A DNA stretch of 64,000 nucleotides, from the sequence record ON286972. One strand, 5' to 3'. A program made the translations under genes and the position numbers. The notes below the pieces were generated by a model, which saw only the letters and a program-made list of their open reading frames with translations, made no database searches and was not told where the DNA came from. Origin of the DNA: Escherichia phage A4. Below, in pieces: positions 890 to 45,698 of the stretch (its first letter is position 1; each line of letters opens with the position of its first letter).

Positions 890-1102
890 ATGATAACTAT
901 CAATTACTTTTCACTATGCTTTGTTTATTTTGTTGTTGTATTTCTAGCAGTTGTAGCGTACAATAATATTAAATGTATATATAAAATTATCAAAAACAAA
1001 GAGAAATTCAATGGATGGATGATATATCACATTGTCATCTCGGTTGTGTGTATCTTATTTGTATACGATTTGAGTTCATTAGGTACAGTAGGTAAGCTAT
1101 GA
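890..1102 (+). CDS. small hydrophobic membrane protein
   Basis: 70-aa ORF, two hydrophobic segments; stop overlaps next start. Confidence 0.35.
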   Translation: MITINYFSLCFVYFVVVFLAVVAYNNIKCIYKIIKNKEKFNGWMIYHIVISVVCILFVYDLSSLGTVGKL

Positions 1103-1851
1103 TTTCTGACTCTTTTATAAAAAATAAAGGTAATAAACGTGTATTGGTTATTTCCGGTGCAGGTCTATCCGTTGAAAGTGGGATGGAACCGTTTCGCATG
1201 GACGATGGCCTATGGGATCAATTTCAAATAAATGATGTATGTAACATTGCACGTCTTAGTACTAAGTATCATTTAGTACACACTTTCTATAATACATTAC
1301 GTGTTAAAATGAAAGATTGTGTTCCTAATGATATGCATTATTATATCAAATCTCTAGAAGATACATACGGTGATAACTTTTTACATATGACTTCGAATAT
1401 GGATGATCTCTATACTCGTATTGGTGGTAATGAATTAAAGTTACATGGTAATTTAAAAGAAGTTATTGAGAATTTTACAATTGGTGGTGACGATTATAGT
1501 ATTGTGGATTGTGGTTATGAACCGTACATTCCGAAAGAAGGTGTCTTTGCGAAACCAAACGTAGTGTTCATTGGTGAATATTATCGTTATGTTGATGGTG
1601 AAAAACTCCCAATATACGATGAGCGTAATTTAATATTGCAATCCTTAACAGAAGATGATACAGTTGTAGTCATTGGTAGCAGTGACACAGTACTGAAATG
1701 GTCACATCTGGTTGCTTGTTTACCATGCTTTAGTGTTAATATCAACATCAGAAAAAATGATAACGATTTCATGTTCAATGAAAAAATTATAAAACCAGCT
1801 ACAAAAGCGATTCCAGTACTGGAAACTATCATTAAGGATAGAATGAAATGA
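1099..1851 (+). CDS. Sir2-family (sirtuin-like) NAD-dependent protein
   Basis: VLVISGAGLSVESGMEPFR..DGLW matches sirtuin NAD-binding motif GAGxSxxSGIPxFR..GLW; KLHGN candidate catalytic His; ATGA overlap with downstream Nudix. Confidence 0.6.
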   Translation: MISDSFIKNKGNKRVLVISGAGLSVESGMEPFRMDDGLWDQFQINDVCNIARLSTKYHLVHTFYNTLRVKMKDCVPNDMHYYIKSLEDTYGDNFLHMTSNMDDLYTRIGGNELKLHGNLKEVIENFTIGGDDYSIVDCGYEPYIPKEGVFAKPNVVFIGEYYRYVDGEKLPIYDERNLILQSLTEDDTVVVIGSSDTVLKWSHLVACLPCFSVNINIRKNDNDFMFNEKIIKPATKAIPVLETIIKDRMK

Positions 1852-2396
1852 TTCGAGAAGTACCTCTAGGTGAGTATGGTAAACGAGCAAACTTTGTATT
1901 CTGTTACTTCTTTGCTCGAAATTGTAACCCATATAAAGGTTATGAATTAAATGATATCCCTGTTGTGAATCTGGTATTACTCCAGCTTCGTTGGGATGGT
2001 TTACTGGGTGGTTGTGGTGGAACAGTCGAAGATACCGATGCCACCTTAGAAGATGCACTATTCCGTGAAATTCAGGAAGAGATGGATTATAATATTTTCA
2101 TCGAACAACTGAAACCATTGAAAACTTACGAACTATATCCTGGAGCACATACCCATAGCTATAGTTATGAAGTTACTTACGAAGAATTGAATGCGATTCG
2201 CGACGGATACAGTACTGCTAAACATGCAAGTGCAGAAGTGGCTGGTGTTAATTTATGTCACATTTCTCGTTATTCAAAGGGACAAAACCGAGAAGCAGGA
2301 TATAATAATCTTATGACACAAAACTTCATAGGAACTGCTAAAATGGAATTAGAACATCTTGTTCAATCCGAGAATTTACTGATTAGTTACTTATAA
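1848..2396 (+). CDS. Nudix-like hydrolase (degenerate Nudix box)
   Basis: GGTVEDTDATLEDALFREIQEE contains REIQEE signature of the Nudix box; start overlaps Sir2 stop. Confidence 0.45.
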   Translation: MIREVPLGEYGKRANFVFCYFFARNCNPYKGYELNDIPVVNLVLLQLRWDGLLGGCGGTVEDTDATLEDALFREIQEEMDYNIFIEQLKPLKTYELYPGAHTHSYSYEVTYEELNAIRDGYSTAKHASAEVAGVNLCHISRYSKGQNREAGYNNLMTQNFIGTAKMELEHLVQSENLLISYL

Positions 2397-2407
2397 GGTG
2401 AATTATA

Positions 2408-2740
2408 ATGTCTTACTCAATGTTTCTGGATGATATTCGTGATCCTGAAAAGTATTATCCAAATCAAAACATGGTTTTATGTCGTGATTATGAAAGTGCA
2501 TGTGCTTATGTAAATGAACATGGTTTACCACAATTTATTAGCTTCGATCATGACTTAGGTGATGTTGGGGAGGATGAAAAAACAGGGTATTCATTTGCAA
2601 AATTTCTAATTGATTATATGGTCGAAAACAATATCAGTACTGAATTCGATTATATCATCCATAGCAGTAATCCTGTAGGGAAGGTCAACATTGACACATA
2701 CTTACAGAATGGTTTTAGATTTTTGAGAGGGGACAATTGA
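2408..2740 (+). CDS. hypothetical protein
   Basis: 110-aa ORF with upstream AGGTGA; acidic motifs FLDDIRDP / SFDHDLGD; fold not assigned. Confidence 0.4.
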   Translation: MSYSMFLDDIRDPEKYYPNQNMVLCRDYESACAYVNEHGLPQFISFDHDLGDVGEDEKTGYSFAKFLIDYMVENNISTEFDYIIHSSNPVGKVNIDTYLQNGFRFLRGDN

Positions 2741-3036
2741 CAAAACATCATATACAAAGCTTTATAATCACAAGTGTTATATTTCTTGTTGTGTTTTGGT
2801 TCTTCTATCATCAAGATCAAACCAAGCACAGAAATATATACTACCGTACTGCTGTTGTTACTGACATAGGGCAGTGTGAAGAAAATACATGTTCATTTAC
2901 TTATAAGACTGAAGATGGGTCTATTAAGTATGGAGCATCAAGTAAACCAGTTTCAGTTGGGCAAATTGTTTACAATGAATGCTGGACAGAAAAGGCTCGC
3001 GGTCACCGCTGCTACGTTGACTATGAGCCACAATAA
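2737..3036 (+). CDS. hypothetical membrane-anchored protein
   Basis: N-terminal hydrophobic segment; TTG start in track, start uncertain. Confidence 0.3.
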   Translation: MTKHHIQSFIITSVIFLVVFWFFYHQDQTKHRNIYYRTAVVTDIGQCEENTCSFTYKTEDGSIKYGASSKPVSVGQIVYNECWTEKARGHRCYVDYEPQ

Positions 3037-3100
3037 GAAGTGTCTGAGTCTATAATCTACCGTAGAGCACAAGGATGTGCTCATAACTCAAGGATGTTTT

Positions 3101-4540
3101 ATGAAAAAATACACAATTGACACAAACGTACTACTATCCGATCCAAATGCAACTGTAGCATTTGATGGGGCAGCAGTGATTCTACCATTCACTGTTCTTG
3201 AAGAACTTGATTCAATCAAGAGCCGTAATGTTGACGTATCACGTGATGCACGTTTCGCAATCCGTAACATCGATGCAATTCTGAAAGATGCTACTCATGA
3301 AGAAATCAGCAGTACTGGTGTTAATATTGCCAATATCCACAAAAATATGGATGCATCCAGTAAGCTATTCGTTATGACGAATGAAGAAGCTGAAGCACTT
3401 ATTCGTATGGGCGGCAGTGAAGATAAAGTAGAAACTCTACTTAAAAGTACTGTACCAGATGACAAAATCATTCTAGTGGCTTTGGCATCACAATCAGTAC
3501 TGGTAACTCGCGACATTAACATGCGTATCAAAGCAATGAGCTACGGTGTTGAGGTACAAGATTACCGTCATGACGTTGCAATCGAAGATAGTGAGTTGAT
3601 TCATATTGGTCAGCACCACCTTGATATTGATTTCTGGAAAACATTCAGTGAAGTTAATAATGCTGAAATTAAATCCCAACAAGAAGGTCGCCGTCTATAT
3701 CACTATATTCCAACCGCATTGATTCAAGATGTTCTACCAGATAATCTATGTATTGGTGATTATCTATATGATAATGCTGATGTACTATTCGTATACGAAG
3801 GTCAATCTGCTATCGAAGAAGAAGACGGTTCACTAACACCTGAAGATATTTTGGTATTCCAGGATATTGGTCAAAGTATCGCTCTTCGTGCTAAAGTTTG
3901 GGATATTAAAGCAAAGAATATTCAACAGGCACTAGCAATTAACAGTATTCTTGACCCTGATGTACATTTGACAGTACTACTCGGTTCAGCAGGTACTGGT
4001 AAAACATTGATTACTGTTGCTACTTCACTCGAATTAGTGCTGGAAAAACGTAAATACGATCGTATAATCTTCTCCAAAACACAAGATTCTCAATTTGAAG
4101 AAATTGGTTTCTTGCCTGGTTCTGAAGCTGAGAAGGTCATCCCATTCTGTGGGGCTGCAATTGATGCACTAGAGTATCTACACAAAGACGATGCTAACCC
4201 ACAAGGTAGTATTGAAGAGATTCTCAAACGTAACGTAATGCAGTTTAAAGCATTGAACTTTATTCGTGGTCGTTCTTTTACTAATACAATTCTAATTGTT
4301 GATGAATTCCAGAACATCACCCCTGCACAGGCAAAAACTATTCTTACCCGTGCAGGTCAAAACTGTAAGGTTATCATTATGGGTAACTTAGCACAGATTG
4401 ATAGTAAGTTTATTAGTCCAGTTAATAGTGGTTTGACATATGTAACTGAAAAATTCAAAGATTGGGAAGGGTGTCGTATCATTGAATTGGAAGGTGTTGT
4501 ACGTTCTGCACTTGCAGAGTTTGCAGAAGAAAATATGTAA
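3101..4540 (+). CDS. phoH: PhoH-like ATPase with N-terminal PIN-like domain
   Basis: Walker A GSAGTGKT, Walker B IVDEFQN; N-terminal ~130 aa PIN-like; start moved to ATG 3101 (MKKYTIDTN) with AAGGA upstream. Confidence 0.7.
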   Translation: MKKYTIDTNVLLSDPNATVAFDGAAVILPFTVLEELDSIKSRNVDVSRDARFAIRNIDAILKDATHEEISSTGVNIANIHKNMDASSKLFVMTNEEAEALIRMGGSEDKVETLLKSTVPDDKIILVALASQSVLVTRDINMRIKAMSYGVEVQDYRHDVAIEDSELIHIGQHHLDIDFWKTFSEVNNAEIKSQQEGRRLYHYIPTALIQDVLPDNLCIGDYLYDNADVLFVYEGQSAIEEEDGSLTPEDILVFQDIGQSIALRAKVWDIKAKNIQQALAINSILDPDVHLTVLLGSAGTGKTLITVATSLELVLEKRKYDRIIFSKTQDSQFEEIGFLPGSEAEKVIPFCGAAIDALEYLHKDDANPQGSIEEILKRNVMQFKALNFIRGRSFTNTILIVDEFQNITPAQAKTILTRAGQNCKVIIMGNLAQIDSKFISPVNSGLTYVTEKFKDWEGCRIIELEGVVRSALAEFAEENM

Positions 4541-5751: not shown

Positions 5752-6309
5752 ATGTTCTTTGACCAAACATTTACGTTGTACCATGATTCTGGAAAAGTAG
5801 AGATTGTTGATAATCTTCTACAATATATTGCTGACCACGAAGGGGTTGAACGATTTCACAGCAAAATGAAATTTGATTTATCCGAGTTCAACAAGAAGAA
5901 TCGTGAATCATTCTGGAAAAATCGTTTCTATTATGAAATGTATCCTGAAAAGTTTGTCAGTTATTATCTCTGTACTGAAAAAGGTTTACTTGTATCGCCT
6001 GATTTACTTATGGGTGAATACATGGTTCTCTATAATGAGTACTGGGAACATAAACGTAAGGCCCGTGACACCGAATGGCGACACAAACGCTCTTACATGT
6101 ACAAGCATAACCATTTTCGCTACAAACGTCCTAAGACCCAACAAGAGCGTCGTATGGCGTGTGCAGTACTGAAGGATGATGGTGAACCTGATATTCGTGG
6201 AAAACGCAAGATGCGTTCACTACCGACATATTGGGACGATTTTAGAACAAGACACAGTACTGGCTGGAAATACAGTACTAAACGTAAACATCAATACAAA
6301 GGGAGCTAA
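5752..6309 (+). CDS. hypothetical protein, basic Arg/Lys/Tyr-rich C-terminus
   Basis: 185-aa ORF, AATGGAG ribosome-binding site. Confidence 0.45.
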   Translation: MFFDQTFTLYHDSGKVEIVDNLLQYIADHEGVERFHSKMKFDLSEFNKKNRESFWKNRFYYEMYPEKFVSYYLCTEKGLLVSPDLLMGEYMVLYNEYWEHKRKARDTEWRHKRSYMYKHNHFRYKRPKTQQERRMACAVLKDDGEPDIRGKRKMRSLPTYWDDFRTRHSTGWKYSTKRKHQYKGS

Positions 6310-6336
6310 TGCTCCCTATTTTTATATAGGTATATT

Positions 6337-6666
6337 ATGAACAAAATTGACGTTGAAGTTGTTATTGGCTATATTGAAATTGAACAGTGTGGTATTGATA
6401 CATTTATTGACACTCTTAATAAGTACCGTGCAGAGTACAAGGGGCACATTAGTCTTTCACCAGACGGTGGTTACGGCGGGTTCGATGGATACAATGTAAT
6501 TTGGACACGAGAAGAAACGGATGAAGAATACAATATCCGTTTGCAGTTAGAATCACAACGTCGCGAAGAAATTGAACGTCAAGAAATGAAACATTTAATG
6601 AACAAGAAATCATTAAGTGCTGAAGAGAAATCTAAACTTCTAAAATATATCAAGGATTACATGTAA
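6337..6666 (+). CDS. hypothetical protein
   Basis: 109-aa ORF; ATGTAATG junction with next gene. Confidence 0.45.
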   Translation: MNKIDVEVVIGYIEIEQCGIDTFIDTLNKYRAEYKGHISLSPDGGYGGFDGYNVIWTREETDEEYNIRLQLESQRREEIERQEMKHLMNKKSLSAEEKSKLLKYIKDYM

Positions 6667-7779: not shown

Positions 7780-8139
7780 ATGAGTGATTATGTTGCATTC
7801 CTACATCGTTTTGGTAAAGCTGAAGAAAAGCACATCATTCGTCTACCAGCTTATGGTGAGAAAGACTGGTACAAAAGTACTATCAGCGTAGGTGCATTCC
7901 GTGACCGTGAAGCTGAATTCTTTCTCGGTAAGCAACATGAACGAGCAGTACTTTGCTCCCTTTGGCGTTTAGACGAATGGGATGAAGAGAATGCAAGAAC
8001 TGCGGTATCAATGCTTAAAATTGTTGGCATTGCAAACTATCAGCACCCATATGATCTATTACCTACGTTTACCCATGCTTCATTGTTTGACTTTTATAAA
8101 GCAATCGGGTATGATTATAAAAAGAAACGTTATATCTGA
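7780..8139 (+). CDS. hypothetical protein
   Basis: 119-aa ORF. Confidence 0.45.
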   Translation: MSDYVAFLHRFGKAEEKHIIRLPAYGEKDWYKSTISVGAFRDREAEFFLGKQHERAVLCSLWRLDEWDEENARTAVSMLKIVGIANYQHPYDLLPTFTHASLFDFYKAIGYDYKKKRYI

Positions 8140-8149
8140 GGATCAATCC

Positions 8150-8953
8150 ATGTCGAATCCAATCTGTAAGCATTGTTCAAAAACTAAATTCTACCATGAA
8201 CCACATACATTGAAATGTCCTAAACCTTCTCGTTCTCTTCTCGTCACTTATGAAGATGTTAATGTATATGATGAAGTAGTTTCTGAACCAAACGTTTTAG
8301 TTATTCCAGAAATCAATCAAACCGTAAGTACATTACTAGATTGGAAAGAACAGATTACCAATGTAGATGATTTTGTTATTCCGTTACATGACAAACAATG
8401 GGTTTTTGATACGATTTATAAAAATGCCGATGTTGATTGTGAAGAAGAAGCAGATGACCTAAAATGTGCATTAAACAATTGTGATGGAACTGTCGTTTTA
8501 GGTAAACCGGATACTGCAAATGATGGAACTTATCTAATGTTTGGTATGAAAACCAATATCGGTGAACTTGAAGATGATTATTGCCTTCTTGATAATATTA
8601 CATTAATAGAATGGAGTAAGCTTTCTAATTTAGAATTGATTGAAATTGGCACTTTTGAAAGTCATATGGATATTGATGAAAGTAAGAATAAAGGTATTAA
8701 TGCCTTTATGTCTGAAGTTATTGGGCGTTCATTGTATAGTCCCGATTCCGTTGATATCAAAACGACTGCTGATTGTAAAGCATTCCTAAAGCAAGAATAT
8801 GATGTTGAAAAAGCAAAACGCATTAAAAAAGAAAAATGGGGTCAAATCGAATACCGCTTATTTGAATCAGATGAAGGTAGACATTACACCTTAGTATCGT
8901 ATAACGATAAACTAATTTCTCATTACGCTTTTGCATATAACGAAGACTACTAA
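8150..8953 (+). CDS. hypothetical protein with N-terminal Cys-rich segment
   Basis: start moved to ATG 8150 (MSNPICKHCSK) with GAGGA 7 nt upstream; track ORF from 7982 overlaps previous gene. Confidence 0.5.
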   Translation: MSNPICKHCSKTKFYHEPHTLKCPKPSRSLLVTYEDVNVYDEVVSEPNVLVIPEINQTVSTLLDWKEQITNVDDFVIPLHDKQWVFDTIYKNADVDCEEEADDLKCALNNCDGTVVLGKPDTANDGTYLMFGMKTNIGELEDDYCLLDNITLIEWSKLSNLELIEIGTFESHMDIDESKNKGINAFMSEVIGRSLYSPDSVDIKTTADCKAFLKQEYDVEKAKRIKKEKWGQIEYRLFESDEGRHYTLVSYNDKLISHYAFAYNEDY

Positions 8954-35833: not shown

Positions 35834-36037
35834 ATGATTGAAATTAATGCTGATATATATTGTAGTGCATCACCCAATTACTTCATTTATGCACTAAGTA
35901 CATTTGGTGAAACTGAAGGTGAAACTTTTGTTTTAGTAGATAATACTACATGGTACAAAACAAGTAATAAAATTCCAAAAGATGTTTTGGAAACATATGT
36001 TCGTATTGAAAATAAAAACATATATGTACATTTATAG
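35834..36037 (+). CDS. hypothetical protein
   Basis: 67-aa ORF. Confidence 0.35.
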   Translation: MIEINADIYCSASPNYFIYALSTFGETEGETFVLVDNTTWYKTSNKIPKDVLETYVRIENKNIYVHL

Positions 36038-36044
36038 GTAAAAT

Positions 36045-36455
36045 ATGATTGAAATGGAAGGAACTCTGGTGTATGATCCAGACCGTGGCACTATGAAAAA
36101 GAAGAAGGACTTCTGGTTAGTACTGCAACTTCCATTACAGTTGGTTAGATACTACCAGTACTTCATCAGAACTGATCTACACATTGATGTTAAAGACCCA
36201 CAATGGGGAGCACACGTCAGTATTGTTCGTGGTGAAGTGCCACCAAATCCAGAGTACTGGAAAAAGTACGATGGTCAAAAAATTAAAATAAAATTCAATC
36301 CTGATATTGTTCAAGTGAAAGATAAAAAGAAACCAGGCTCGTTCTTTATCATAGAGTTCGATGATGAATTCATTGGACACATTCGCAATGAACTAGGATT
36401 ACAATCAAAGTACTTACGTTATCACCTCACAGTAGGGAGAACGTACTACGACTAA
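36045..36455 (+). CDS. 2H-phosphoesterase-fold protein (LigT/cyclic phosphodiesterase-like)
   Basis: two H-x-[ST]-x motifs: AHVSIV and YHLTVG, spaced as in 2H phosphoesterases; 136 aa. Confidence 0.45.
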   Translation: MIEMEGTLVYDPDRGTMKKKKDFWLVLQLPLQLVRYYQYFIRTDLHIDVKDPQWGAHVSIVRGEVPPNPEYWKKYDGQKIKIKFNPDIVQVKDKKKPGSFFIIEFDDEFIGHIRNELGLQSKYLRYHLTVGRTYYD

Positions 36456-36540
36456 CCTATAGGTTTGTCATACAATTGGCTAAATAAAATGGGTATTAAT
36501 ATACCCATAATTATAACCAAAAGAAATATCAAGATTTTAC

Positions 36541-36568
36541 TTGATATGAAATTGAAAGATGCTATACT
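36541..36568 (+). promoter_or_regulatory. putative sigma70-like promoter (TTGATA-16-TATACT)
   Basis: upstream of endolysin; followed by 14-bp perfect palindrome TTTCAGTACTGAAA at 36597-36610. Confidence 0.3.
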
Positions 36569-36702
36569 ACTTACATGTACAGAATGAAAGTTACCTTTTC
36601 AGTACTGAAAGTATTGTAGAAAGTCCGATGAGGCTTTTGCAAATGGCCTCATAAGCCCTCTTTGTAATTGCTCATCATAACACGCAAACAAAGGAGGCGT
36701 TT

Positions 36703-37629
36703 TTGACAATAGCGATACAAACACCTAAAACTAAGACAGCTATAGGCTTATTAGTTTCACTTGTTATCATCGCTGCGTTTGGATTTTATGGTTTTTCTCA
36801 ACATGATCGTGCATCATCATCGGGCGAAAGTCAGGTGCACAATTTAAAACCGCAAGTTACACAAATTCAAAAGCAGGAATTACCTAAAGGGTATACACCT
36901 AAAGTAGTTCCAGGCAGCGAGAAACATTATACTGTTGAATACGGTGATAGTTATCATTCGATAGCTAAGAAGTTTAAACCGCATAATGTGTTGTTTGAAG
37001 ATTACGTTACAGTATTGAAGAATATCAATCTTAATGCTAAACTTCATACATCGCAGGGTATCTTTATCCCAACAAAAGAGGATTTGAAAGACGTACTGTT
37101 ACCTGATGTGGTAGTACTTTTCGATTATAATGATCCTGAAATAGTTGCACACATCAAAGAAGCTGAAGGTTCAATTGAATTTCAGTCCAAGAACAAAAGA
37201 CGTTTACTTGGGGGAAAAGTTGGAGTTCCTTTCTACAATTCAAAATTTCATCCTTATAAGGATATGAAAGGTAATTATACAATAGGTTATGGACATTACT
37301 TAGGTAAGAACGAATCTGATGCAATTAAGTACAGAAACGGTATTACCAAAGCACAAGCACATAAACTATTACTTCAAGATTTGAAAAGGACATATAATGA
37401 CTTTACAACTCTAATGAAGAAAAAAAATGCAGTAAATCTTACAAAAGACCAACAACGTATTCTCTTTGACATGGCTTACACGATGGGTGTTGATAAGTTG
37501 GCCTCATTTAATAAACTATGGAGAAGTGCTGAAGCTGAAAATCATAAGAAGTTTAAAAGAGAAATCAAAAATTCCTTATGGTATAGGCAAGTAACAAACA
37601 GAGCGGATACTTTGTTAAGCTCAATCTAA
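36703..37629 (+). CDS. endolysin: signal-anchor + LysM-like + lysozyme domain
   Basis: TTG start after AAAGGAGG; N-terminal TM; YTVEYGDSYHSIAKKF LysM-like; NYTIGYGHYLG resembles T4-lysozyme TIGIGH core. Confidence 0.65.
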   Translation: MTIAIQTPKTKTAIGLLVSLVIIAAFGFYGFSQHDRASSSGESQVHNLKPQVTQIQKQELPKGYTPKVVPGSEKHYTVEYGDSYHSIAKKFKPHNVLFEDYVTVLKNINLNAKLHTSQGIFIPTKEDLKDVLLPDVVVLFDYNDPEIVAHIKEAEGSIEFQSKNKRRLLGGKVGVPFYNSKFHPYKDMKGNYTIGYGHYLGKNESDAIKYRNGITKAQAHKLLLQDLKRTYNDFTTLMKKKNAVNLTKDQQRILFDMAYTMGVDKLASFNKLWRSAEAENHKKFKREIKNSLWYRQVTNRADTLLSSI

Positions 37630-37643
37630 AAGGAAGGTGAAGT

Positions 37644-37976
37644 ATGCTAAATCTAGTTATTCAAGGTAATGTTGATATTACTCCAGCAATCCATGACGCA
37701 ATTCATCAAGAAGCAAACACTCTAAATAAATTTAGTGATTCTTCAGTACTGAATATTGGTGTTCATGTGAAAAAAGAGCATAAGACACAGTACGCAGTAA
37801 CTTTAACATCAGGTGGTAAGTCTGTTACTGCCGATGATGCAGATTTATACAAGGCGATTGTCGATTCATTCGAAAAAATGGAAACTGTATTCAGTAAAGA
37901 CAAAAGCATTAAATTGCACCGCCGAAACCATCCAGACCGTCCAGTTGTAGTTGATGTAACTGACGAAGAAGAGTAA
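37644..37976 (+). CDS. hypothetical protein
   Basis: 110-aa ORF, AAGGAAGGTGA ribosome-binding site. Confidence 0.45.
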   Translation: MLNLVIQGNVDITPAIHDAIHQEANTLNKFSDSSVLNIGVHVKKEHKTQYAVTLTSGGKSVTADDADLYKAIVDSFEKMETVFSKDKSIKLHRRNHPDRPVVVDVTDEEE

Positions 37977-38476: not shown

Positions 38477-38662
38477 ATGGAATATACAATAGGTGCAATA
38501 GTATGTATCGCAGCATTATTAGGTGGCATTGGTGTGATGATTTACTTTGATGCAGAACCCAGTACTGAAATGGGTACAACCCTGGAACTCAAACCTGGCA
38601 TTAAGGTGAACGACTCTTACTGTTACGATCCACATAGTAATAAGTATGTGATTTGTTTATGA
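38477..38662 (+). CDS. small membrane protein
   Basis: N-terminal hydrophobic helix. Confidence 0.35.
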   Translation: MEYTIGAIVCIAALLGGIGVMIYFDAEPSTEMGTTLELKPGIKVNDSYCYDPHSNKYVICL

Positions 38663-39069
38663 AAAAGTTTAATATTAAACCGATATTTGATGCTATCGAA
38701 ATTAAATTGAAAGACCAACGAAAACCCGATGGTACTGGTTTATTCTTTAGTTTAGATAGAACCTACGTTGAAACACATGTATCAAGTTTTGATAGAACTG
38801 GTAATCTTTTCATCCGTTCATATAACATGTTTTATAGTGAAGATGTTTTTATGATAGATATCACTTTAGATGAAAGTATAGGTTTGATGTACATTGAAGA
38901 TGTTCAATCAAACGATCAACGAAACGGCACACTTCCTATTGGTGCTACCGAGGAAGAGTTTATGCAATATCAGTTCATTGATGATACCTTTGGTATTGAC
39001 TTTGTGACATATCAGAGTATAATGCGTGTATACGAACAGTATGAGGATTACGTAATTGGACGTTACTAA
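38653..39069 (+). CDS. hypothetical protein, paralog A
   Basis: C-terminal ..EEEFMQYQFIDDTFGIDFVTYQSIMRVYEQYE parallels next gene. Confidence 0.45.
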   Translation: MFMKKFNIKPIFDAIEIKLKDQRKPDGTGLFFSLDRTYVETHVSSFDRTGNLFIRSYNMFYSEDVFMIDITLDESIGLMYIEDVQSNDQRNGTLPIGATEEEFMQYQFIDDTFGIDFVTYQSIMRVYEQYEDYVIGRY

Positions 39070-39478
39070 AATACCCAAATTCAACGAAACGTTAAAGTAC
39101 TTTTCTGAACAAGAGTTCAGTACTGAAAGACGTGGTTTAGTCACATACAACCAATATCGCGTAATGTATACTAACCAGTTACAAGGAACAGTACGTATTA
39201 AAATCCGTAATGCATATGATGATGGTGATGAATTATTAATTATACTAAGAAAAAGTAAGATAGAACTACAATACCATAGATTTGATACTTCCGATGAGTT
39301 TGCATGGAATGTGTTAGAAAAGAAAGTAGGTTCATTGCCTGTAGTTGATGATGGACCTGAAACACTTGATCAGTACATGTTCATTGATGATACATTTAGT
39401 ATTGACTATTCTTCATTTCAGTATATACTATCTATACATAAACAATATGAATCCCGCTTGCGTGACAGATTAATTTAA
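39056..39478 (+). CDS. hypothetical protein, paralog B
   Basis: C-terminal ..LDQYMFIDDTFSIDYSSFQYILSIHKQYE parallels previous gene. Confidence 0.45.
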   Translation: MDVTKIPKFNETLKYFSEQEFSTERRGLVTYNQYRVMYTNQLQGTVRIKIRNAYDDGDELLIILRKSKIELQYHRFDTSDEFAWNVLEKKVGSLPVVDDGPETLDQYMFIDDTFSIDYSSFQYILSIHKQYESRLRDRLI

Positions 39479-39621: not shown

Positions 39622-40689
39622 ATGTATAAATTTTATTTTAATGAAAATAACGAGAAGGTATATTTCCATGAAGAATTAGGTATGCGTTTCGAATGGATGC
39701 GTCCCGAAGATTTATCACCAAAATTAATTAAAACATCAAAAACACCTAAAGAACATTTTGATGAAATAATAGAAAAAGGATATAATATTTTAGGATTTGC
39801 TATAACATCAAGTGATGAATGGAAATCTAGTTTTACAAGAACTGTTGTTGAAAAAGATGGTATTATATATACAAAAAGAAATATAAATGATATAAAAACG
39901 AAAGGTATGAAATATATCATTGGGAAATATGACAATGAAAATTATAGATATTATCTTTATAAGACTTCAAAAAGTCTAATGACTGGTGAATGTGAATTAC
40001 TTTTAGAACAACCAATAATTAAAGATAAAAGAACCAAATTAACTTATAAATGCTTAAAATGTGGTCACGTTGATGAAATGGAAATTAGTAATATACAAAG
40101 TGGTCAGGGTTGCTCTATTTGTCGATTTGAAAAAACCAGATTAGCACACGCATTCACCACCGCTGAATTTGTTGAACGAGCAAAAGAAATTCATGGTAAT
40201 GTATATAACTATTCAAAAGTCATCTACATTAATAGTAGCACTCATGTTGAAATAATTTGTAAAAAACATAATAATTCTTTTTATATCATTCCAAATTTTC
40301 ATATAGCAAAAAATAAAAATCAAGGTTGCCCAATATGCTCATCTGAACATACTGAATCCAGAGCTAGTAGAGAAATAACACGTTTTTTAATTGAAAATGG
40401 TATAAAATTTAATAAAGAACAAACATTTAGTGACTGTAAAAATAAAATGTTATTAAGATTTGATTTTTATTTGGTTGATTATGATATTTGTATTGAGTAT
40501 GATGGTAAACAACATTTTGAGAAATCACCTCATTGGGGTGGAGAAGATAAATTGAAAAACATCAAGGATAACGATACTATAAAGACACAATATTGTGAAA
40601 AGAATTTTATTAAATTAATACGTGTAACATATTATGAAGACCACTTAACTGTATTAAAAAAACATCTTTCAGAGGAAGGTATATTATGA
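39622..40689 (+). CDS. Zn-ribbon protein with C-terminal endonuclease-like domain (possible free-standing homing endonuclease)
   Basis: multiple CxxC pairs; C-terminal RFDFYLVDYDICIEYDGKQHF resembles PD-(D/E)xK/DUF559-type motif; gene markedly more AT-rich than neighbours. Confidence 0.35.
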   Translation: MYKFYFNENNEKVYFHEELGMRFEWMRPEDLSPKLIKTSKTPKEHFDEIIEKGYNILGFAITSSDEWKSSFTRTVVEKDGIIYTKRNINDIKTKGMKYIIGKYDNENYRYYLYKTSKSLMTGECELLLEQPIIKDKRTKLTYKCLKCGHVDEMEISNIQSGQGCSICRFEKTRLAHAFTTAEFVERAKEIHGNVYNYSKVIYINSSTHVEIICKKHNNSFYIIPNFHIAKNKNQGCPICSSEHTESRASREITRFLIENGIKFNKEQTFSDCKNKMLLRFDFYLVDYDICIEYDGKQHFEKSPHWGGEDKLKNIKDNDTIKTQYCEKNFIKLIRVTYYEDHLTVLKKHLSEEGIL

Positions 40690-41798
40690 AAAAGTATTTG
40701 GTGGGCGGCTATGTGAGGGACCGTTTAATGGGTATTCGTACAAAAGACAAAGATTATGTCATTGTCGGTGCTACCGAATCCGATATTAAGTACTTACAAA
40801 GTATTGGCTATAAGCAAGTAGGTAAGGATTTTCCCGTGTATCTAAGTCCAGAGGGTAATGAGCACGCATTGGCCCGTACCGAACGTAAAACTGGTACTGG
40901 TTACGGTGGCTTCGAAGTGAATACTAAAGGCGTGACACTAGAGCAAGATCTATACAGAAGGGATATTACGGTAAATAGCATAGCGTATGATCCAGTACTG
41001 CAAATTCACATCGACCCATACGGTGGTAAAGCTGATATCAAGAATAAAGTACTACGCCATGTATCCGAGCACTTCAAAGAAGATCCATTACGTGTATTAC
41101 GTCTAGCTCGCTTTGCTACGCGTTATTCTGATTTCTCTATACACGAGACTACTGAAGCACTTGCAATCGATATGGTAGCGTCTGGTGAGCTAAATCACCT
41201 TGTTCCAGACCGTGTTTATGTTGAATTTGAAAAAGCACTGTCAGAAGAAAAGCCAGCTAAGTTCCTTAAAACACTAAGTAAGTTGGGTTACTATGAAAAA
41301 GCATTTAATGCAACATTAACCAAAAAGTCATTGGAACTCATTGATCATATCTCTGATAATTGTACTGAAGCATATAAGCCATATTTCTTATGGTCTGTGC
41401 TTCTTGAGAAAGAAGAAGTTGGTGAGGATTCAGTACTGAATGGTGCTATTAAAATGCCCGTTAAGTACGTTAAATTCAGTAATTACATCAAACGTTTCCG
41501 TGATGATATCAAGGCATTCCGTAAAAAGACCCCAAATGAAATGGGACAATTATTACTGGATATGAATATCAAGAATAACGGCGGTGAAGAATTCCTTTAC
41601 AAAGTACTGGAATATTTTATTCTACGTAAAGAGATTGATTTAGACCTTGAAGATTTAATCATTAAGGTATATGATCGTTACACTGATGTAGTACTTCCAG
41701 ATATTCAACAACTGGTAAAAGACGGTGAGTTAGAAGCATCTGAAATCCGTGATTTTGTTTCAGATTTACGTTGTGAAGCAATTCAACAAATGTTTTAA
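40686..41798 (+). CDS. tRNA nucleotidyltransferase (CCA-adding enzyme) family protein
   Basis: N-terminal GGYVRDRLMG..DKDYV head-domain motif. Confidence 0.65.
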   Translation: MKKYLVGGYVRDRLMGIRTKDKDYVIVGATESDIKYLQSIGYKQVGKDFPVYLSPEGNEHALARTERKTGTGYGGFEVNTKGVTLEQDLYRRDITVNSIAYDPVLQIHIDPYGGKADIKNKVLRHVSEHFKEDPLRVLRLARFATRYSDFSIHETTEALAIDMVASGELNHLVPDRVYVEFEKALSEEKPAKFLKTLSKLGYYEKAFNATLTKKSLELIDHISDNCTEAYKPYFLWSVLLEKEEVGEDSVLNGAIKMPVKYVKFSNYIKRFRDDIKAFRKKTPNEMGQLLLDMNIKNNGGEEFLYKVLEYFILRKEIDLDLEDLIIKVYDRYTDVVLPDIQQLVKDGELEASEIRDFVSDLRCEAIQQMF

Positions 41799-41884
41799 AA
41801 CTCTGGGACAAGAGAACGACTTCTGATATAATAATTGTATCTGGGCATCATTGCTATTAAGAGATAAGATTATGCGTTATAGTT

Positions 41885-42301
41885 GTGGCATTATATTTTA
41901 TCGTGATGGTCAGATACTTGTTGGACACACAACACGGACAGAAGCATTGGGATTTACCAAAAGGTAAAACCGAGGGCAATGAAACATTTGCTGAAGCTGC
42001 TGTTCGTGAGTGCTATGAAGAAACAGGATTTGAGATTGATGAAAAGGATCTTCTCTTATTAGGTGATGTATCATACAGGAAAGGGAAAAGATTAGTTTTA
42101 TTTTTCTATACAGCTAAATACAAACCCGAACCGGATGAACTGAAGTGTAACAGTACTTATACCAATCGATATGGTAAAAGCCATCCAGAATTGGATAAAT
42201 TCATGTACATTGATGTTCAAGATTGTCAAAAGTATTTGACCGAACGAATGTGTAACAGTATAATTAAAGCTGTTAAATTGTTTCAAAAAAATAAAGGATA
42301 G
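41885..42301 (+). CDS. Nudix hydrolase (apparent frameshift at 5' end)
   Basis: perfect Nudix box GKTEGNETFAEAAVRECYEETGF; expected N-terminal strand MRYSCGIIFYRDGQILVGH is in the -1 frame starting ATG 41872. Confidence 0.5.
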   Translation: MALYFIVMVRYLLDTQHGQKHWDLPKGKTEGNETFAEAAVRECYEETGFEIDEKDLLLLGDVSYRKGKRLVLFFYTAKYKPEPDELKCNSTYTNRYGKSHPELDKFMYIDVQDCQKYLTERMCNSIIKAVKLFQKNKG

Positions 42302-42305
42302 TTAT

Positions 42306-42554
42306 ATGAAAGTGAAAATTTATGGTCGCACGACTGGTTGTAATTTCTGTGATACAGCAAAAGCAATTTGTGAGAACAATTCATTTGAAATGGATTTTAT
42401 CGATGTGGTTTCTGAAGGTATTGATGGTGCTAAACTATCAGAAATTTGCGGTGAGCCAGTTCGTCAAGTTCCACAAATTTTCGTAAATGATGAGTATGTT
42501 CCTGGTGGATGTACTGGTTTTGTTAACGGGCTAAAAGAAGGTCGCTGGAACTAA
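42306..42554 (+). CDS. glutaredoxin/thioredoxin-fold protein (NrdC-like)
   Basis: CNFC active-site motif near N-terminus, ~82 aa. Confidence 0.55.
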   Translation: MKVKIYGRTTGCNFCDTAKAICENNSFEMDFIDVVSEGIDGAKLSEICGEPVRQVPQIFVNDEYVPGGCTGFVNGLKEGRWN

Positions 42555-42793
42555 TGAATATCGATAAGGTATCATCACGAGCACGTGCATTGGCTGACAG
42601 TTTGGGAGTTAAATTTGAAACTCCAGATATCAACCAATCAAAACAAAAAGCTCAAAAGAAAATTCATGAAATGAAAGAATACACATCAAGACGTGAAGAA
42701 TACGATGCTGCTATTTCTCACATTATTGAAGTGTTTAGTAAAGATGATATTTTAGCATTTATTGCTTCACATGAGGTTGTAAAAAACCCCTAA
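42554..42793 (+). CDS. hypothetical protein
   Basis: 79-aa ORF, ATGA overlap. Confidence 0.4.
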   Translation: MNIDKVSSRARALADSLGVKFETPDINQSKQKAQKKIHEMKEYTSRREEYDAAISHIIEVFSKDDILAFIASHEVVKNP

Positions 42794-42828
42794 ATAATAT
42801 TGAAGAACAACAAGTTCTTCTTAACAAT

Positions 42829-43086
42829 TTGGGAGATACTATTATGCTCAGTTTTCGTGAACAATTAGCAAAAGGTCAATTTCAGACTAAAGCTCAAACA
42901 AATATTCCTAAAAAATCTGCATTCTTAGGAACAATTACGGAAGATGGTTATTGTGACTTCAATCCACCAGAAGATAGCTGGTATATTGAAAAAGACACAA
43001 AACGTAGTAATAGACTTCACAAAAGTACAATAGCAAGAAAGCATCGAAAAGAATTGAAGAAAATTCGTTTCGGTGAAGAAGAATAA
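42829..43086 (+). CDS. hypothetical basic protein
   Basis: 85-aa ORF. Confidence 0.4.
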   Translation: MGDTIMLSFREQLAKGQFQTKAQTNIPKKSAFLGTITEDGYCDFNPPEDSWYIEKDTKRSNRLHKSTIARKHRKELKKIRFGEEE

Positions 43087-43100
43087 CCTAATAATATAAA

Positions 43101-43130
43101 GGACTTGAGATTATCGAGTCCTTTTCTTTT
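43101..43130 (+). terminator. rho-independent terminator
   Basis: GGACTTGA-GATTA-TCGAGTCC (one wobble) then T-rich run. Confidence 0.5.
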
Positions 43131-43140
43131 CGGAGAACAC

Positions 43141-43617
43141 ATGATACATGAACATCACGGAAATCTGTTTGAATTATTCAGTACTGTAACTGATGATCAT
43201 ACTGCATTACATATTATAGCTCATGGTTGTAATGCTCAAGGTAAAATGGGTTCTGGTTTTGCAAAAGAACTCAGAATGCAGTACCCAAAGGCATATGATG
43301 ATTATAAAGAATATGAAAAGAGAATGGGTTTTCTAAGAACCGGACAAATTGCATATTCAGCAATTAATGATGATTTGATTATCGCAAACTGCATTACTCA
43401 AAAATGGTACGGAACTGATGGTGCAAAATACGTAAGCTATGATGCCATTGATGACGTTTTCATGCATTTGAATTTTTTCTGTAAAATTGAACGAAATGTT
43501 CATGTACACTTTCCGAAAATTGGAGCCGATTTGGGCGGTGGTAACTGGAACGTTATCAAAGAAATCATTGACCACAGGCTGGTTAATGCTGAAAAACATT
43601 TATATATTCTCAAATAA
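43141..43617 (+). CDS. macro-domain-like protein (ADP-ribose binding/processing)
   Basis: IIAHGCNAQGKMGSGFAKEL resembles macro motif NAAN..GGGV..AI; start set at ATG 43141. Confidence 0.4.
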   Translation: MIHEHHGNLFELFSTVTDDHTALHIIAHGCNAQGKMGSGFAKELRMQYPKAYDDYKEYEKRMGFLRTGQIAYSAINDDLIIANCITQKWYGTDGAKYVSYDAIDDVFMHLNFFCKIERNVHVHFPKIGADLGGGNWNVIKEIIDHRLVNAEKHLYILK

Positions 43618-43636
43618 ACAAAAGGACTTGACAAAA

Positions 43637-43945
43637 ATGACTATTACCGTTAAACTACTAAACATCAACAACGTTGGCCCAGTACTAGCAGTTCTACAAA
43701 CCGATGCTCCAGAAGCAGTAGTAGTTAACTACCCAGCACAGCTAGGTACTGACGAAAAAGGTGAAATCATTCTACGTGATTATCTAGAATTTATTAGTTC
43801 AGAAAAAGGTGTTATTTTCTTCAAATCTAACATCATCAGTATCAGTGATGCAAACCCTGCACTGGTTGATGCTTATGTTGAAGCAATTAAGACTCTAGAA
43901 GATAAGCCAGCGTTGATTGTCCCTGACAACAAAATCATCCTATAA
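43637..43945 (+). CDS. hypothetical protein
   Basis: start set at ATG 43637 (MTITVKLL); track ORF from 43487 overlaps previous gene. Confidence 0.45.
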   Translation: MTITVKLLNINNVGPVLAVLQTDAPEAVVVNYPAQLGTDEKGEIILRDYLEFISSEKGVIFFKSNIISISDANPALVDAYVEAIKTLEDKPALIVPDNKIIL

Positions 43946-43957
43946 TAGAGGTATAAA

Positions 43958-44335
43958 ATGGCTGCTAATGAAGTGAAAGCAAAAACTATTCAAGCTATCG
44001 TAGTACTGAAAGGTAAAACCCCATCACCAAAAGAATTGGTTATGGCTGGCATGACTATGCTACATCAGTACAACCCAGCATCCCCTAACTATGTTCAAGA
44101 ATATGAAGCCAAACAGTTTAAAGCTCATTGGGATTCATGGATTAAAGACAATGAACTGGAACAAGTTGTCTATGAAGCAGATGACATGGATGAAATGATG
44201 CAGATTGAATATCTTGCGAATCAGCAGTCAGTACCACTAAGTATGTTTGGTAATGGGGAAGAGGTTCTAGTACTCGGCCCCTTCACTAAAAAAGATATTG
44301 AACACATTGTCACTAACTGTACAAAGATAAGTTAG
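43958..44335 (+). CDS. hypothetical protein
   Basis: 125-aa ORF. Confidence 0.45.
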   Translation: MAANEVKAKTIQAIVVLKGKTPSPKELVMAGMTMLHQYNPASPNYVQEYEAKQFKAHWDSWIKDNELEQVVYEADDMDEMMQIEYLANQQSVPLSMFGNGEEVLVLGPFTKKDIEHIVTNCTKIS

Positions 44336-45390: not shown

Positions 45391-45400
45391 AATAAAAAAA

Positions 45401-45424
45401 AGACTCCATGTTGGGGTCTTTTTT
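45401..45424 (+). terminator. rho-independent terminator
   Basis: AGACTCC-loop-GGGGTCT then TTTTTT, A-run upstream. Confidence 0.5.
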
Positions 45425-45440
45425 CATATACGGTGATATA

Positions 45441-45698
45441 ATGACAATTGAATATGCAAAATTCAGATGTGGAAAATTAAGCGACAATTATTTCGAATCA
45501 GAACAGTACTGGCGATTTATCAAAAATGCATTAGTAGATGTATTCACCAGGGATGTAATTAACGCATGGGCAAGTATATGCAGGGATGATAATGGAAAAA
45601 CATTTTATGTTGTATATGTGTCAGTATACAACGGTAATGAAACTATTATTGATATAGTTAGAAGCTTAGTTGGTGATGAATATATGAAGGAAGTGTAA
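45441..45698 (+). CDS. hypothetical protein
   Basis: start uncertain (ATG 45441 vs track 45408 inside terminator hairpin). Confidence 0.3.
   Translation: MTIEYAKFRCGKLSDNYFESEQYWRFIKNALVDVFTRDVINAWASICRDDNGKTFYVVYVSVYNGNETIIDIVRSLVGDEYMKEV

What the first reader, a model, noticed from the sequence alone, without database searches (positions are those of the whole stretch)
36045..36455. 2H-phosphoesterase candidate (possible cyclic-nucleotide or RNA-end processing enzyme)
The 136-aa protein has two H-x-[ST]-x motifs (HVSI, HLTV) spaced as in 2H phosphoesterases. This family includes phage enzymes that degrade cyclic oligonucleotide immune signals (anti-CBASS Acb1-type) as well as 2'-5' RNA ligases. 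It lies just upstream of the endolysin.
Basis: partly seen in the sequence, partly recalled or inferred. Interest (0 to 1): 0.6.

Follow-up and report, generated by a model that had tools for sequence, protein, structure and literature searches.

The report
Minimal 2H phosphoesterase in jumbo coliphage
The 136-residue gene is a real, conserved, very small member of the two-histidine (2H) phosphoesterase superfamily in a giant E. coli phage. It most likely opens 2',3'-cyclic phosphate ends during RNA/tRNA repair rather than acting as an Acb1-type anti-CBASS nuclease, and it is a credible but unsurprising, still untested enzyme.

Summary

By sequence it is not an Acb1. Sixty-eight of 82 relatives hit Pfam 2H-SAK (PF22547) and none hits Pfam Acb1 (PF23474). 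The protein ends 9 residues after H127, so it has no Acb1 lid. Related phages carry a true Acb1 as well as this gene.

The window comes from an Asteriusvirus-like jumbo coliphage. In several lineages the family's neighbours are RNA-repair, translation-rescue or NAD/ADP-ribose genes: CCA-adding enzyme, Ro/TROVE, RNA ligase, YqeY, cREC, a histidine phosphatase, Nudix and macro.

Verdict: a new member of a known kind. The 2H assignment is solid. The substrate is inferred, with RNA or cyclic-phosphate healing about 0.55 and anti-signalling about 0.2. Interest is modest.

The parts
36045..36455 (+). Gene for the 136-aa stand-alone 2H phosphoesterase (phrog_12204; Pfam 2H-SAK-like clade)
36213..36224 (+). 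Motif 1, H57-V-S59-I, on predicted strand 56-62. Proposed catalytic His plus phosphate-binding Ser.
   Evidence: H57 is invariant in 82/82 sequences; position 59 is S in 60 and T in 22. Strand assignment.
36423..36434 (+). Motif 2, H127-L-T129-V, followed by G131-R132, on predicted strand 126-132. Proposed second catalytic His plus Thr.
   Evidence: H127 is invariant in 82/82; position 129 is T in 80 and S in 2; G131 in 73/82; position 132 is R in 49 and K in 18. The protein ends 9 residues after H127, and the family median is also 9.
36048..36254 (+). Repeat 1 of the internal duplication (strand, loop with Y10-D-P12, strand, helix, HxS strand)
   Evidence: hhalign of the N-half against the C-half of alignment A2 gives probability 71%, E 3.7e-5, 57 columns, with H57xS aligned on H127xT. 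Secondary structure.
36255..36452 (+). Repeat 2 of the internal duplication (strands 79-84, 88-92 and 99-105, helix 108-116, HxT strand)
   Evidence: This repeat also aligns locally to Acb1 repeat 1, placing H127 on Acb1 H44 (probability 54%).
36036..36039 (+). AGGT, likely Shine-Dalgarno sequence 5 nt upstream of the ATG (inferred)
   Evidence: Read directly from the sequence.
40686..41798 (+). CCA-adding tRNA nucleotidyltransferase. Candidate downstream partner (inferred from context only).
   Evidence: Pfam PolyA_pol E 1.8e-18. Found within 1.8-6.3 kb of the 2H gene in 4 of 17 independent lineages.
41885..42301 (+). Nudix hydrolase (context)
   Evidence: Pfam NUDIX E 2.2e-12. Nudix genes lie within 10 kb in 5 of 17 lineages.
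43105..43617 (+). Macro-domain protein (context, weak Pfam hit). A possible ADP-ribose-1''-phosphate phosphatase.
   Evidence: Pfam Macro E 0.005, below the curated cutoff. The orthologue is annotated as macro / Appr-1-p processing in ph0011 and phage BF.
43958..44335 (+). PTH2-like peptidyl-tRNA hydrolase (context)
   Evidence: Pfam PTH2 E 5e-4, below the curated cutoff. Annotated as aminoacyl-tRNA hydrolase in ph0011.
37644..37976 (+). Ribosome hibernation factor (S30AE/HPF) homologue (context)
   Evidence: Pfam Ribosomal_S30AE E 3.8e-10.
1099..4540 (+). Distant (32 kb upstream) cluster of Sir2, Nudt16-like Nudix, cREC and PIN-PhoH. This is the predicted NAD-dependent RNA-repair cluster, which in phage BF also holds a true Acb1-family 2H.
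   Evidence: Pfam SIR2 2e-19, Nudt16-like 4e-19, cREC_REC 2e-22, PIN_4 1e-21 and PhoH 1e-43. Described in PMC9503650. BF gp110 hits PF23474 Acb1 at 56 bits.

Best explanation
The gene encodes a catalytically competent, metal-independent 2H phosphodiesterase reduced to the bare duplicated core of two strand-strand-helix-H-x-S/T units. His57 and His127 would act as the general acid/base pair. Ser59 and Thr129, probably with Arg132, would hold the phosphate. Conserved aromatic residues (Y10, W24, Y36, Y37, W54, W72) are candidates for stacking on the nucleoside. Its most likely job is end-healing. [quoted passage not shown] The ends could then be processed further by phosphatases, the phage CCA-adding enzyme or a ligase, and the by-products by macro and Nudix enzymes. 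What is shown: the ORF, motif conservation, the internal duplication, the predicted 2H fold, the family assignment and the gene neighbourhoods. What is inferred: catalysis, the substrate, and any partnership with the neighbouring genes. My confidence is about 0.9 that it is an active 2H enzyme and about 0.55 that RNA or cyclic-phosphate healing is its role.
For: Motifs: H57 and H127 are the only invariant columns in 82 sequences, and the +2 positions are always S or T.
Duplication: the two halves align to each other.
Family: 68 of 82 members hit Pfam 2H-SAK, and several exceed the 27-bit cutoff. UniRef names the Yersinia phage homologue a 'Swiss Army Knife 2H phosphoesterase domain' protein.
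Context in relatives: in Serratia phage BF and most Rak2-like relatives the gene follows an RNA ligase and a Ro/TROVE-like RNA-binding protein. In the distant Ralstonia phage RsoM2USA a TROVE/Ro60 gene ends 93 bp upstream.
Context across 17 lineages: CCA-adding enzyme in 4, Nudix in 5, NADAR in 4, macro/PARG in 3. A histidine phosphatase is adjacent in 24 loci of one lineage, and cREC is adjacent in another. YqeY is adjacent in Atu_ph07 and fused to the 2H domain in P0042.
Context in the window: HPF, CCA-adding enzyme, Nudix, macro and PTH2 lie 1-8 kb downstream.
Literature: published comparative genomics already predicts that 2H enzymes of group 2.2 jumbo phages clear cyclic 2'-3' ends (PMC7824862; PMC9503650).
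Against: There is no biochemical evidence for any member. The query itself gives no Pfam hit even at E 10; the family assignment rests on its homologues. In this window and in Asteriusviruses generally, the adjacent RNA ligase and Ro genes of relatives are absent, so a ligase-coupled pathway is not encoded locally. Neighbourhood associations are each seen in a minority of lineages. I had no background frequency for jumbo-phage genomes, which are rich in such genes anyway. The best single structural neighbour is an immune-signal nuclease, Acb1.
Confidence: 0.55

Rival explanations
1. It is an Acb1-like immune-evasion nuclease. This would be a stand-alone phage 2H enzyme that degrades a host nucleotide second messenger, such as CBASS cyclic di- or trinucleotides, cyclic oligoadenylates or 2'-5'-linked signals, possibly with a specificity different from Acb1.
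Confidence: 0.2
2. Its physiological substrate is a small ADP-ribose derivative rather than an RNA end. [quoted passage not shown] The phage macro and Nudix enzymes would then finish the job.
Against: The tightest and most repeated linkages are to RNA-binding or RNA-end enzymes (Ro/TROVE, RNA ligase, YqeY fusion, CCA-adding enzyme). NAD/ADPr genes are very common in jumbo phages in general, so proximity is weak evidence. The two roles are not mutually exclusive.
Confidence: 0.15
3. It is a non-catalytic or chance occurrence: a structural or binding protein that merely retains 2H-like motifs.
For: No activity data exist. The query scores below all Pfam thresholds.
Against: The two histidines and both S/T positions are fully conserved across 82 sequences at a mean column identity of 23%. 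This is the pattern expected for selection on catalysis. The chance frequency of the motif pair is 5e-5.
Confidence: 0.03

Closest known systems
Pfam PF22547 '2H-SAK' (Swiss Army Knife RNA-repair 2H phosphoesterase domain) / PHROG phrog_12204
   Same: Homologues hit the model at 27-39 bits, covering both motifs, and the model ends just after HxTxGR as these proteins do. 68 of 82 relatives match it. All tested relatives fall in phrog_12204. The predicted role is RNA-end processing.
   Different: The window protein itself is below detection. The phage proteins are stand-alone, about 130-160 aa, rather than domains of a multidomain repair protein. The only fusion identified was to YqeY; other longer members showed no second Pfam domain. 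No HAD phosphatase or kinase is adjacent here. phrog_12204 is labelled 'unknown function'.
Acb1, anti-CBASS 2H nuclease (T4 gp57B, phage FBB1; Pfam PF23474; PDB 7T26/7T27)
   Different: No sequence-family match. An extra N-terminal strand and loop precede repeat 1, and there is no C-terminal lid or E141/W147 equivalents. The two families sit in different PHROGs, 12204 vs 755. They coexist in the same genomes.
LigT/ThpR and archaeal '2'-5' RNA ligase' RNA 2',3'-cyclic phosphodiesterases (PDB 5LDI, 1VGJ, 4QAK, 5H7F)
   Different: These enzymes are 170-185 aa, with about 50 residues after motif 2 that are missing here. Only 2 of 82 relatives give weak LigT_PEase hits. There is no PDB sequence match even with the family profile.
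Viral 2',5'-phosphodiesterases (MHV ns2, rotavirus VP3 C-terminal domain) and poxvirus cGAMP PDE
   Different: They come from eukaryotic viruses, show no detectable sequence relationship to this protein, and sit in different genomic contexts.

Membership tests
2H phosphoesterase superfamily | Two H-phi-[ST]-phi motifs, one per repeat | tested here: met
   HVSI (57-60) and HLTV (127-130). Both His are invariant in 82/82 and the +2 position is 100% S/T.
2H phosphoesterase superfamily | Internally duplicated alpha+beta fold with the two motif strands facing one cleft | tested here: met
2H phosphoesterase superfamily | Metal-independent phosphodiesterase activity dependent on both histidines | not testable with these tools
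   Needs enzymology.
Pfam 2H-SAK (PF22547) | Score at or above the 27-bit gathering threshold | tested here: inconclusive
   The query gives no hit at E<=10. The 87%-identical P0003 scores 26.8 bits. P0008, P0018, P0015, P0024 and P0026 score 28-39 bits. 68 of 82 relatives hit at E<0.01. Membership is therefore by transitive homology.
Swiss Army Knife (SAK) RNA-repair proteins | The 2H domain is embedded in or adjacent to a multidomain end-healing protein (HAD phosphatase, kinase, etc.) | tested here: not met
   The protein is stand-alone at 136 aa. The flanking ORFs have no HAD or kinase domain. The original description (Burroughs & Aravind 2016) could not be read, so this feature is taken from PMC9503650 and from memory.
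Acb1 anti-CBASS nuclease (PF23474) | Sequence-family membership | tested here: not met
   No PF23474 hit for the query or any of 82 relatives. The controls BF gp110 (56 bits) and 77 of 78 T4-Acb1 relatives do hit. hhalign against the Acb1 profile gives only a local repeat match.
Acb1 anti-CBASS nuclease (PF23474) | HxT/HxT catalytic tetrad | tested here: met
   HxS/HxT here. The Acb1 tetrad is H44, T46, H113, T115.
Acb1 anti-CBASS nuclease (PF23474) | C-terminal lid (residues 145-152, W147) and E141 closing over the cyclic dinucleotide | tested here: not met
   The protein ends 9 residues after H127, and the family median is also 9. The lid is described.
Acb1 anti-CBASS nuclease (PF23474) | Cleavage of 3'3'-cGAMP or cyclic trinucleotides and rescue from CBASS | not testable with these tools
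   Needs assays.
LigT/ThpR RNA 2',3'-cyclic phosphodiesterase (PF02834/PF13563) | Sequence-family membership | tested here: not met
   The query has no hit. 2 of 82 relatives give weak LigT_PEase hits (best E 0.0012). The family profile finds no PDB sequence.

The most novel reading that the evidence does not exclude
phrog_12204 could be a second, unrecognised family of phage anti-signalling nucleases. It would be a lid-less minimal 2H enzyme that jumbo phages keep alongside Acb1 because it destroys a different host immune nucleotide, for example 2'-5'-linked or cyclic oligoadenylate signals, or RNA>p/2',3'-cNMP alarm molecules. On this reading it would not be repairing RNA.
Probability: 0.15. 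Interest if true: 0.65.

Novelty: new member of a known kind. Interest (0 to 1): 0.3.

Why it matters
If the prediction holds, this is the smallest natural form of the 2H fold, just two repeats with nothing after the second motif. It is widespread in giant phages (925 clusters at 50% identity) yet has no solved structure and no assayed member.

Knowing its substrate would show whether jumbo coliphages without a local RNA ligase still heal cleaved tRNAs, for instance through the CCA-adding enzyme or host ligases, or whether they carry a further nucleotide-signal eraser. Either answer bears on how therapeutic jumbo phages of the 121Q/PBECO4 group escape abortive-infection systems.

It does not overturn current ideas. 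2H enzymes in such phages were already predicted computationally.

Tried and rejected
1. Direct Pfam, NCBIfam and PDB sequence searches with the query gave nothing useful. Even the 82-sequence profile found no PDB chain.
2. The query-versus-window tblastn hit at 8735-8887 (ORF 7982-8953) looked like a possible paralogue. It has no motifs and no Pfam hit and was rejected as chance.
3. T4 Acb1 against the family profile gave probability 1%. A full Acb1 profile gave only a 37-column repeat-level match.
4. The AFDB50 fold library was unavailable.
5. The paper that originally described SAK (Burroughs & Aravind 2016) is not held. Searches for '2H-SAK' or 'Swiss Army Knife' with '2H phosphoesterase' found no paper.
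6. No supplementary tables are held for the jumbo-phage and UE-S1 papers.
7. I tried to establish whether Asteriusviruses have another RNA ligase. The T4 RnlB tblastn was swamped by T4-like phages. The first 50 kb of the ph0011 annotation was almost all 'hypothetical', so I stopped. The UE-S1 paper mentions an 'RNA ligase' and the phAPEC6 paper mentions possible anti-Prr capacity, both without details.
8. The promoter/terminator scan around the gene was no better than shuffles for promoters. There are no tRNAs and no Rfam families in the window.
9. BLASTP-level clustering of neighbours found few shared families. Iterated HMM searches were needed, and no genomic background was available to turn those counts into statistics.

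Full report
**Observation.** The ORF at 36045-36455 on the + strand exists as described: ATG start, 136 aa. An in-frame TAA at 36039-36041 closes the frame upstream, and an AGGT at 36036-36039 is a plausible ribosome-binding site. HVSI occupies residues 57-60 (nt 36213-36224) and HLTV residues 127-130 (nt 36423-36434). Of 76 plus-strand ORFs of at least 100 aa in the window, this is the only one with a strict H-phi-[ST]-phi pair 55-95 residues apart. Shuffling the protein reproduces such a pair at a frequency of 5e-5. The next gene (36703-37629) has a Phage_lysozyme domain, so 'just upstream of the endolysin' is correct.

**Origin of the window.** tblastn places the gene in 76 phage records, led by Asteriusvirus jumbo coliphages (ph0011 at 93% protein identity; 121Q, PBECO4 and phAPEC6-like phages at 86-89%). 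Rak2-like phages of Klebsiella, Salmonella, Yersinia, Serratia, Erwinia and Cronobacter follow at 54-60%. Distant jumbo phages come last: a Vibrio phage, Agrobacterium Atu_ph07, Ralstonia RsoM2USA and Bacillus phage G, at 26-35%. At the DNA level the window is only about 72-87% identical to ph0011, so it comes from a distinct Asteriusvirus-like phage.

**Family and conservation.**
- The query alone has no Pfam, NCBIfam or PDB sequence match. It matches phrog_12204, labelled 'unknown function', at E 9e-64.
- A profile search of 1.84 billion representatives found 925 clusters at E<=1e-3, nearly all 130-170 aa.
- In an 82-sequence alignment with 23% mean column identity, the only invariant columns are H57 and H127.
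- Position 59 is S (60) or T (22). Position 129 is T (80) or S (2). The flanking positions are hydrophobic. G131 (73/82) and R/K132 (67/82) follow motif 2.
- G6, Y10, P12, Y37, G63, W72, R114 and G118 are at least 90% conserved, and W24, Y36 and W54 at 80-89%.
- The family ends a median of 9 residues after the second histidine.
- The N- and C-terminal halves of the family align to each other, with HxS on HxT (hhalign probability 71%, E 3.7e-5). This is the internal duplication that defines 2H proteins.

**Structure.**
- AlphaFold2 with the 18-sequence alignment gives pLDDT 88.6 and pTM 0.81. The layout is strand-strand-helix-strand(H57), then strand-strand-strand-helix-strand(H127).
- Foldseek against the PDB and against BFVD gives the same picture, with weak E-values.
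- The fold assignment is therefore robust. The differences in score between 2H sub-families are too small to assign a sub-family.

**Which 2H clade.**
- Homologues carry the precomputed Pfam domain PF22547. On rescanning they hit '2H-SAK, Swiss Army Knife 2H phosphoesterase domain' at 20-39 bits against a 27-bit cutoff. The longer alignments span both motifs and end at the C-terminus.
- 68 of 82 relatives hit it at E<0.01, 2 weakly hit LigT_PEase, and none hits Acb1.
- Pfam does have an Acb1 model (PF23474), and it works. Serratia phage BF gp110 scores 56 bits, and 77 of the 78 T4 gp57B relatives carry it.
- Profile-profile comparison of this family with an Acb1 alignment gives only a 37-column local match. 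It aligns this family's repeat 2 (H127) to Acb1 repeat 1 (H44), probability 54%.
- The features that let Acb1 grip a cyclic dinucleotide are the C-terminal lid at residues 145-152, W147 and E141 (PMC9117128). They cannot exist here, because the chain stops 9 residues after H127.
- The two families sit in different PHROGs, 12204 versus 755.
- They coexist in phage BF and, by tblastn, in GAP32 and Yen9-04, and within 4.4 kb of each other in one metagenomic lineage.
- The protein is therefore not an Acb1-family member, although it resembles Acb1 in size and fold.

**Genomic context in the window.**
- The gene lies in a long co-directional block. It runs: thymidine kinase (33939), small unknown ORFs, the 2H gene, lysozyme, an HPF/S30AE ribosome hibernation factor (37644), unknown ORFs, CCA-adding tRNA nucleotidyltransferase (40686), Nudix (41885), a macro-like protein (43105) and a PTH2-like peptidyl-tRNA hydrolase (43958).
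- Thirty-two kb upstream is a Sir2, Nudt16-like Nudix, cREC and PIN-PhoH cluster. Iyer et al. proposed this cluster as an NAD-dependent RNA-repair system linked to a 2H gene in phage BF. That BF 2H gene is gp110, the Acb1-family protein, not the orthologue of the gene studied here.

**Genomic context in relatives.**
- In BF and most Rak2-like relatives, this gene (gp183) lies 2.4 kb downstream of an RNA ligase (gp178) and directly after a Ro/TROVE-like RNA-binding protein and two tiny ORFs.
- The window and ph0011 lack the ligase, the Ro-like gene, YqeY and gp184. From the organism counts, Asteriusviruses in general lack gp178-type ligase and gp110-type Acb1.
- I fetched 59 loci from viral contigs, mostly 130-600 kb genomes. 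I grouped 65 loci into 17 lineages by 2H identity and searched their +/-10 kb neighbourhoods with iterated HMMs. Results:
  - CCA-adding enzyme in 4 lineages.
  - TROVE/Ro in 3, ending 93 bp upstream in both a Rak2-like contig and the distant RsoM2USA.
  - Nudix in 5.
  - NADAR in 4.
  - Macro or PARG in 3.
  - HPF in 2.
  - YqeY in 2, plus one 2H-YqeY fusion protein, P0042.
  - A histidine phosphatase 4 bp downstream in 24 loci of one lineage.
  - cREC 145 bp downstream in another lineage.
  - Sir2 in 1.
- These are recurring links to RNA-end, tRNA and ADP-ribose chemistry. Each covers a minority of lineages, and I had no background model to test enrichment.

**Mechanism.** The best-supported reading is a metal-independent 2H phosphodiesterase. 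His57 and His127 would serve as acid/base, Ser59 and Thr129 (and probably Arg132) would bind the phosphate, and conserved aromatics would contact the nucleoside. The context favours 2',3'-cyclic phosphate ends on RNA or tRNA, or the related Appr>p, as substrates. This matches the published prediction for 2H enzymes of group 2.2 jumbo phages. Without a local ligase, healed ends in this phage might feed the CCA-adding enzyme, an unidentified phage ligase or a host ligase. That step is inference. The rivals are an Acb1-like signal nuclease (about 0.2), a dedicated Appr>p phosphodiesterase (about 0.15) and a non-catalytic protein (about 0.03).

**Novelty.** The family is already modelled in Pfam and named in UniRef. 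Comparative-genomics papers already discuss 2H enzymes in jumbo phages. No member has a solved structure, and I found no paper describing experiments on it. It is therefore a new, sub-threshold member of a known kind, and notable mainly for being a lid-less minimal 2H core. Interest is modest at 0.3. The main upside is the 15% chance that it is a second anti-signalling nuclease family.

Noticed in passing
window 1099-4540: A co-directional cluster of Sir2 (1099-1851), Nudt16-like Nudix (1848-2396), cREC cyclic-phosphate-processing receiver domain (2408-2740) and PIN-PhoH (3077-4540). It matches the sirtuin-centred, predicted NAD-dependent RNA-repair neighbourhood of PMC9503650. Here it lacks the Acb1-family 2H gene (gp110) that sits beside it in Serratia phage BF.
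   Followed up: partly
window 39622-40689: A 355-aa ORF with a treble-clef zinc finger (DUF4379/CapR) lies immediately upstream of, and overlaps by 4 nt, the CCA-adding enzyme gene. About 1.05 kb (39628-40677) has no counterpart in phage ph0011, where the flanks are contiguous. It is probably a mobile homing-endonuclease-like insertion. Conversely, ph0011 has a 2-kb 'endonuclease domain' gene that is absent from the window near 45391-45501.
   Followed up: partly
window 36456-36702: The 247-nt spacer between the 2H gene and the lysozyme gene folds far better than shuffles (-62 kcal/mol, z -4.6, several hairpins). It has no Rfam match, and part of it (36455-36610) does not align to ph0011. In phage BF this position holds an extra 190-aa gene (gp184, phrog_25951, unknown function). 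It could be terminators or processing sites, or a remnant of a lost gene.
   Followed up: partly
window 37644-37976, 40686-44335: A run of translation-apparatus genes: an HPF/S30AE ribosome hibernation factor homologue, CCA-adding enzyme, Nudix, a macro-like protein and a PTH2-like peptidyl-tRNA hydrolase. No tRNA gene lies anywhere in the 64-kb window.
   Followed up: partly
window 38653-39069 and 39056-39478: Two adjacent ORFs of 138 and 140 aa share a C-terminal '...Q(Y/F)xFIDDTFxIDxxx(Y/F)QxIxxxxxQYE' region. They appear to be tandem paralogues of unknown function with no Pfam hit.
   Followed up: no
L052/L053 (IMGVR_UViG_3300033066_001740) and L056/L068 (IMGVR_UViG_3300036715_004471): Two very large viral contigs each carry two copies of this 2H family, tens of kb apart and belonging to different sequence lineages. 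This suggests sub-functionalisation within the family.
   Followed up: no
L012 6405-7067; L022 about 145 bp downstream of the 2H gene: In one large metagenomic lineage (24 loci), a His_Phos_1 histidine phosphatase gene overlaps the end of the 2H gene. In another lineage a cREC domain gene follows it directly. Both look like two-step cyclic-phosphate-then-phosphate end-healing pairs.
   Followed up: partly
L010 (Aneurinibacillus migulanus chromosome, 6001-6639): The only clearly bacterial chromosomal homologue seen, at 212 aa. It sits between a GntR-aminotransferase regulator and an amino-acid permease, with no phage or RNA-repair genes within 6 kb.
   Followed up: no
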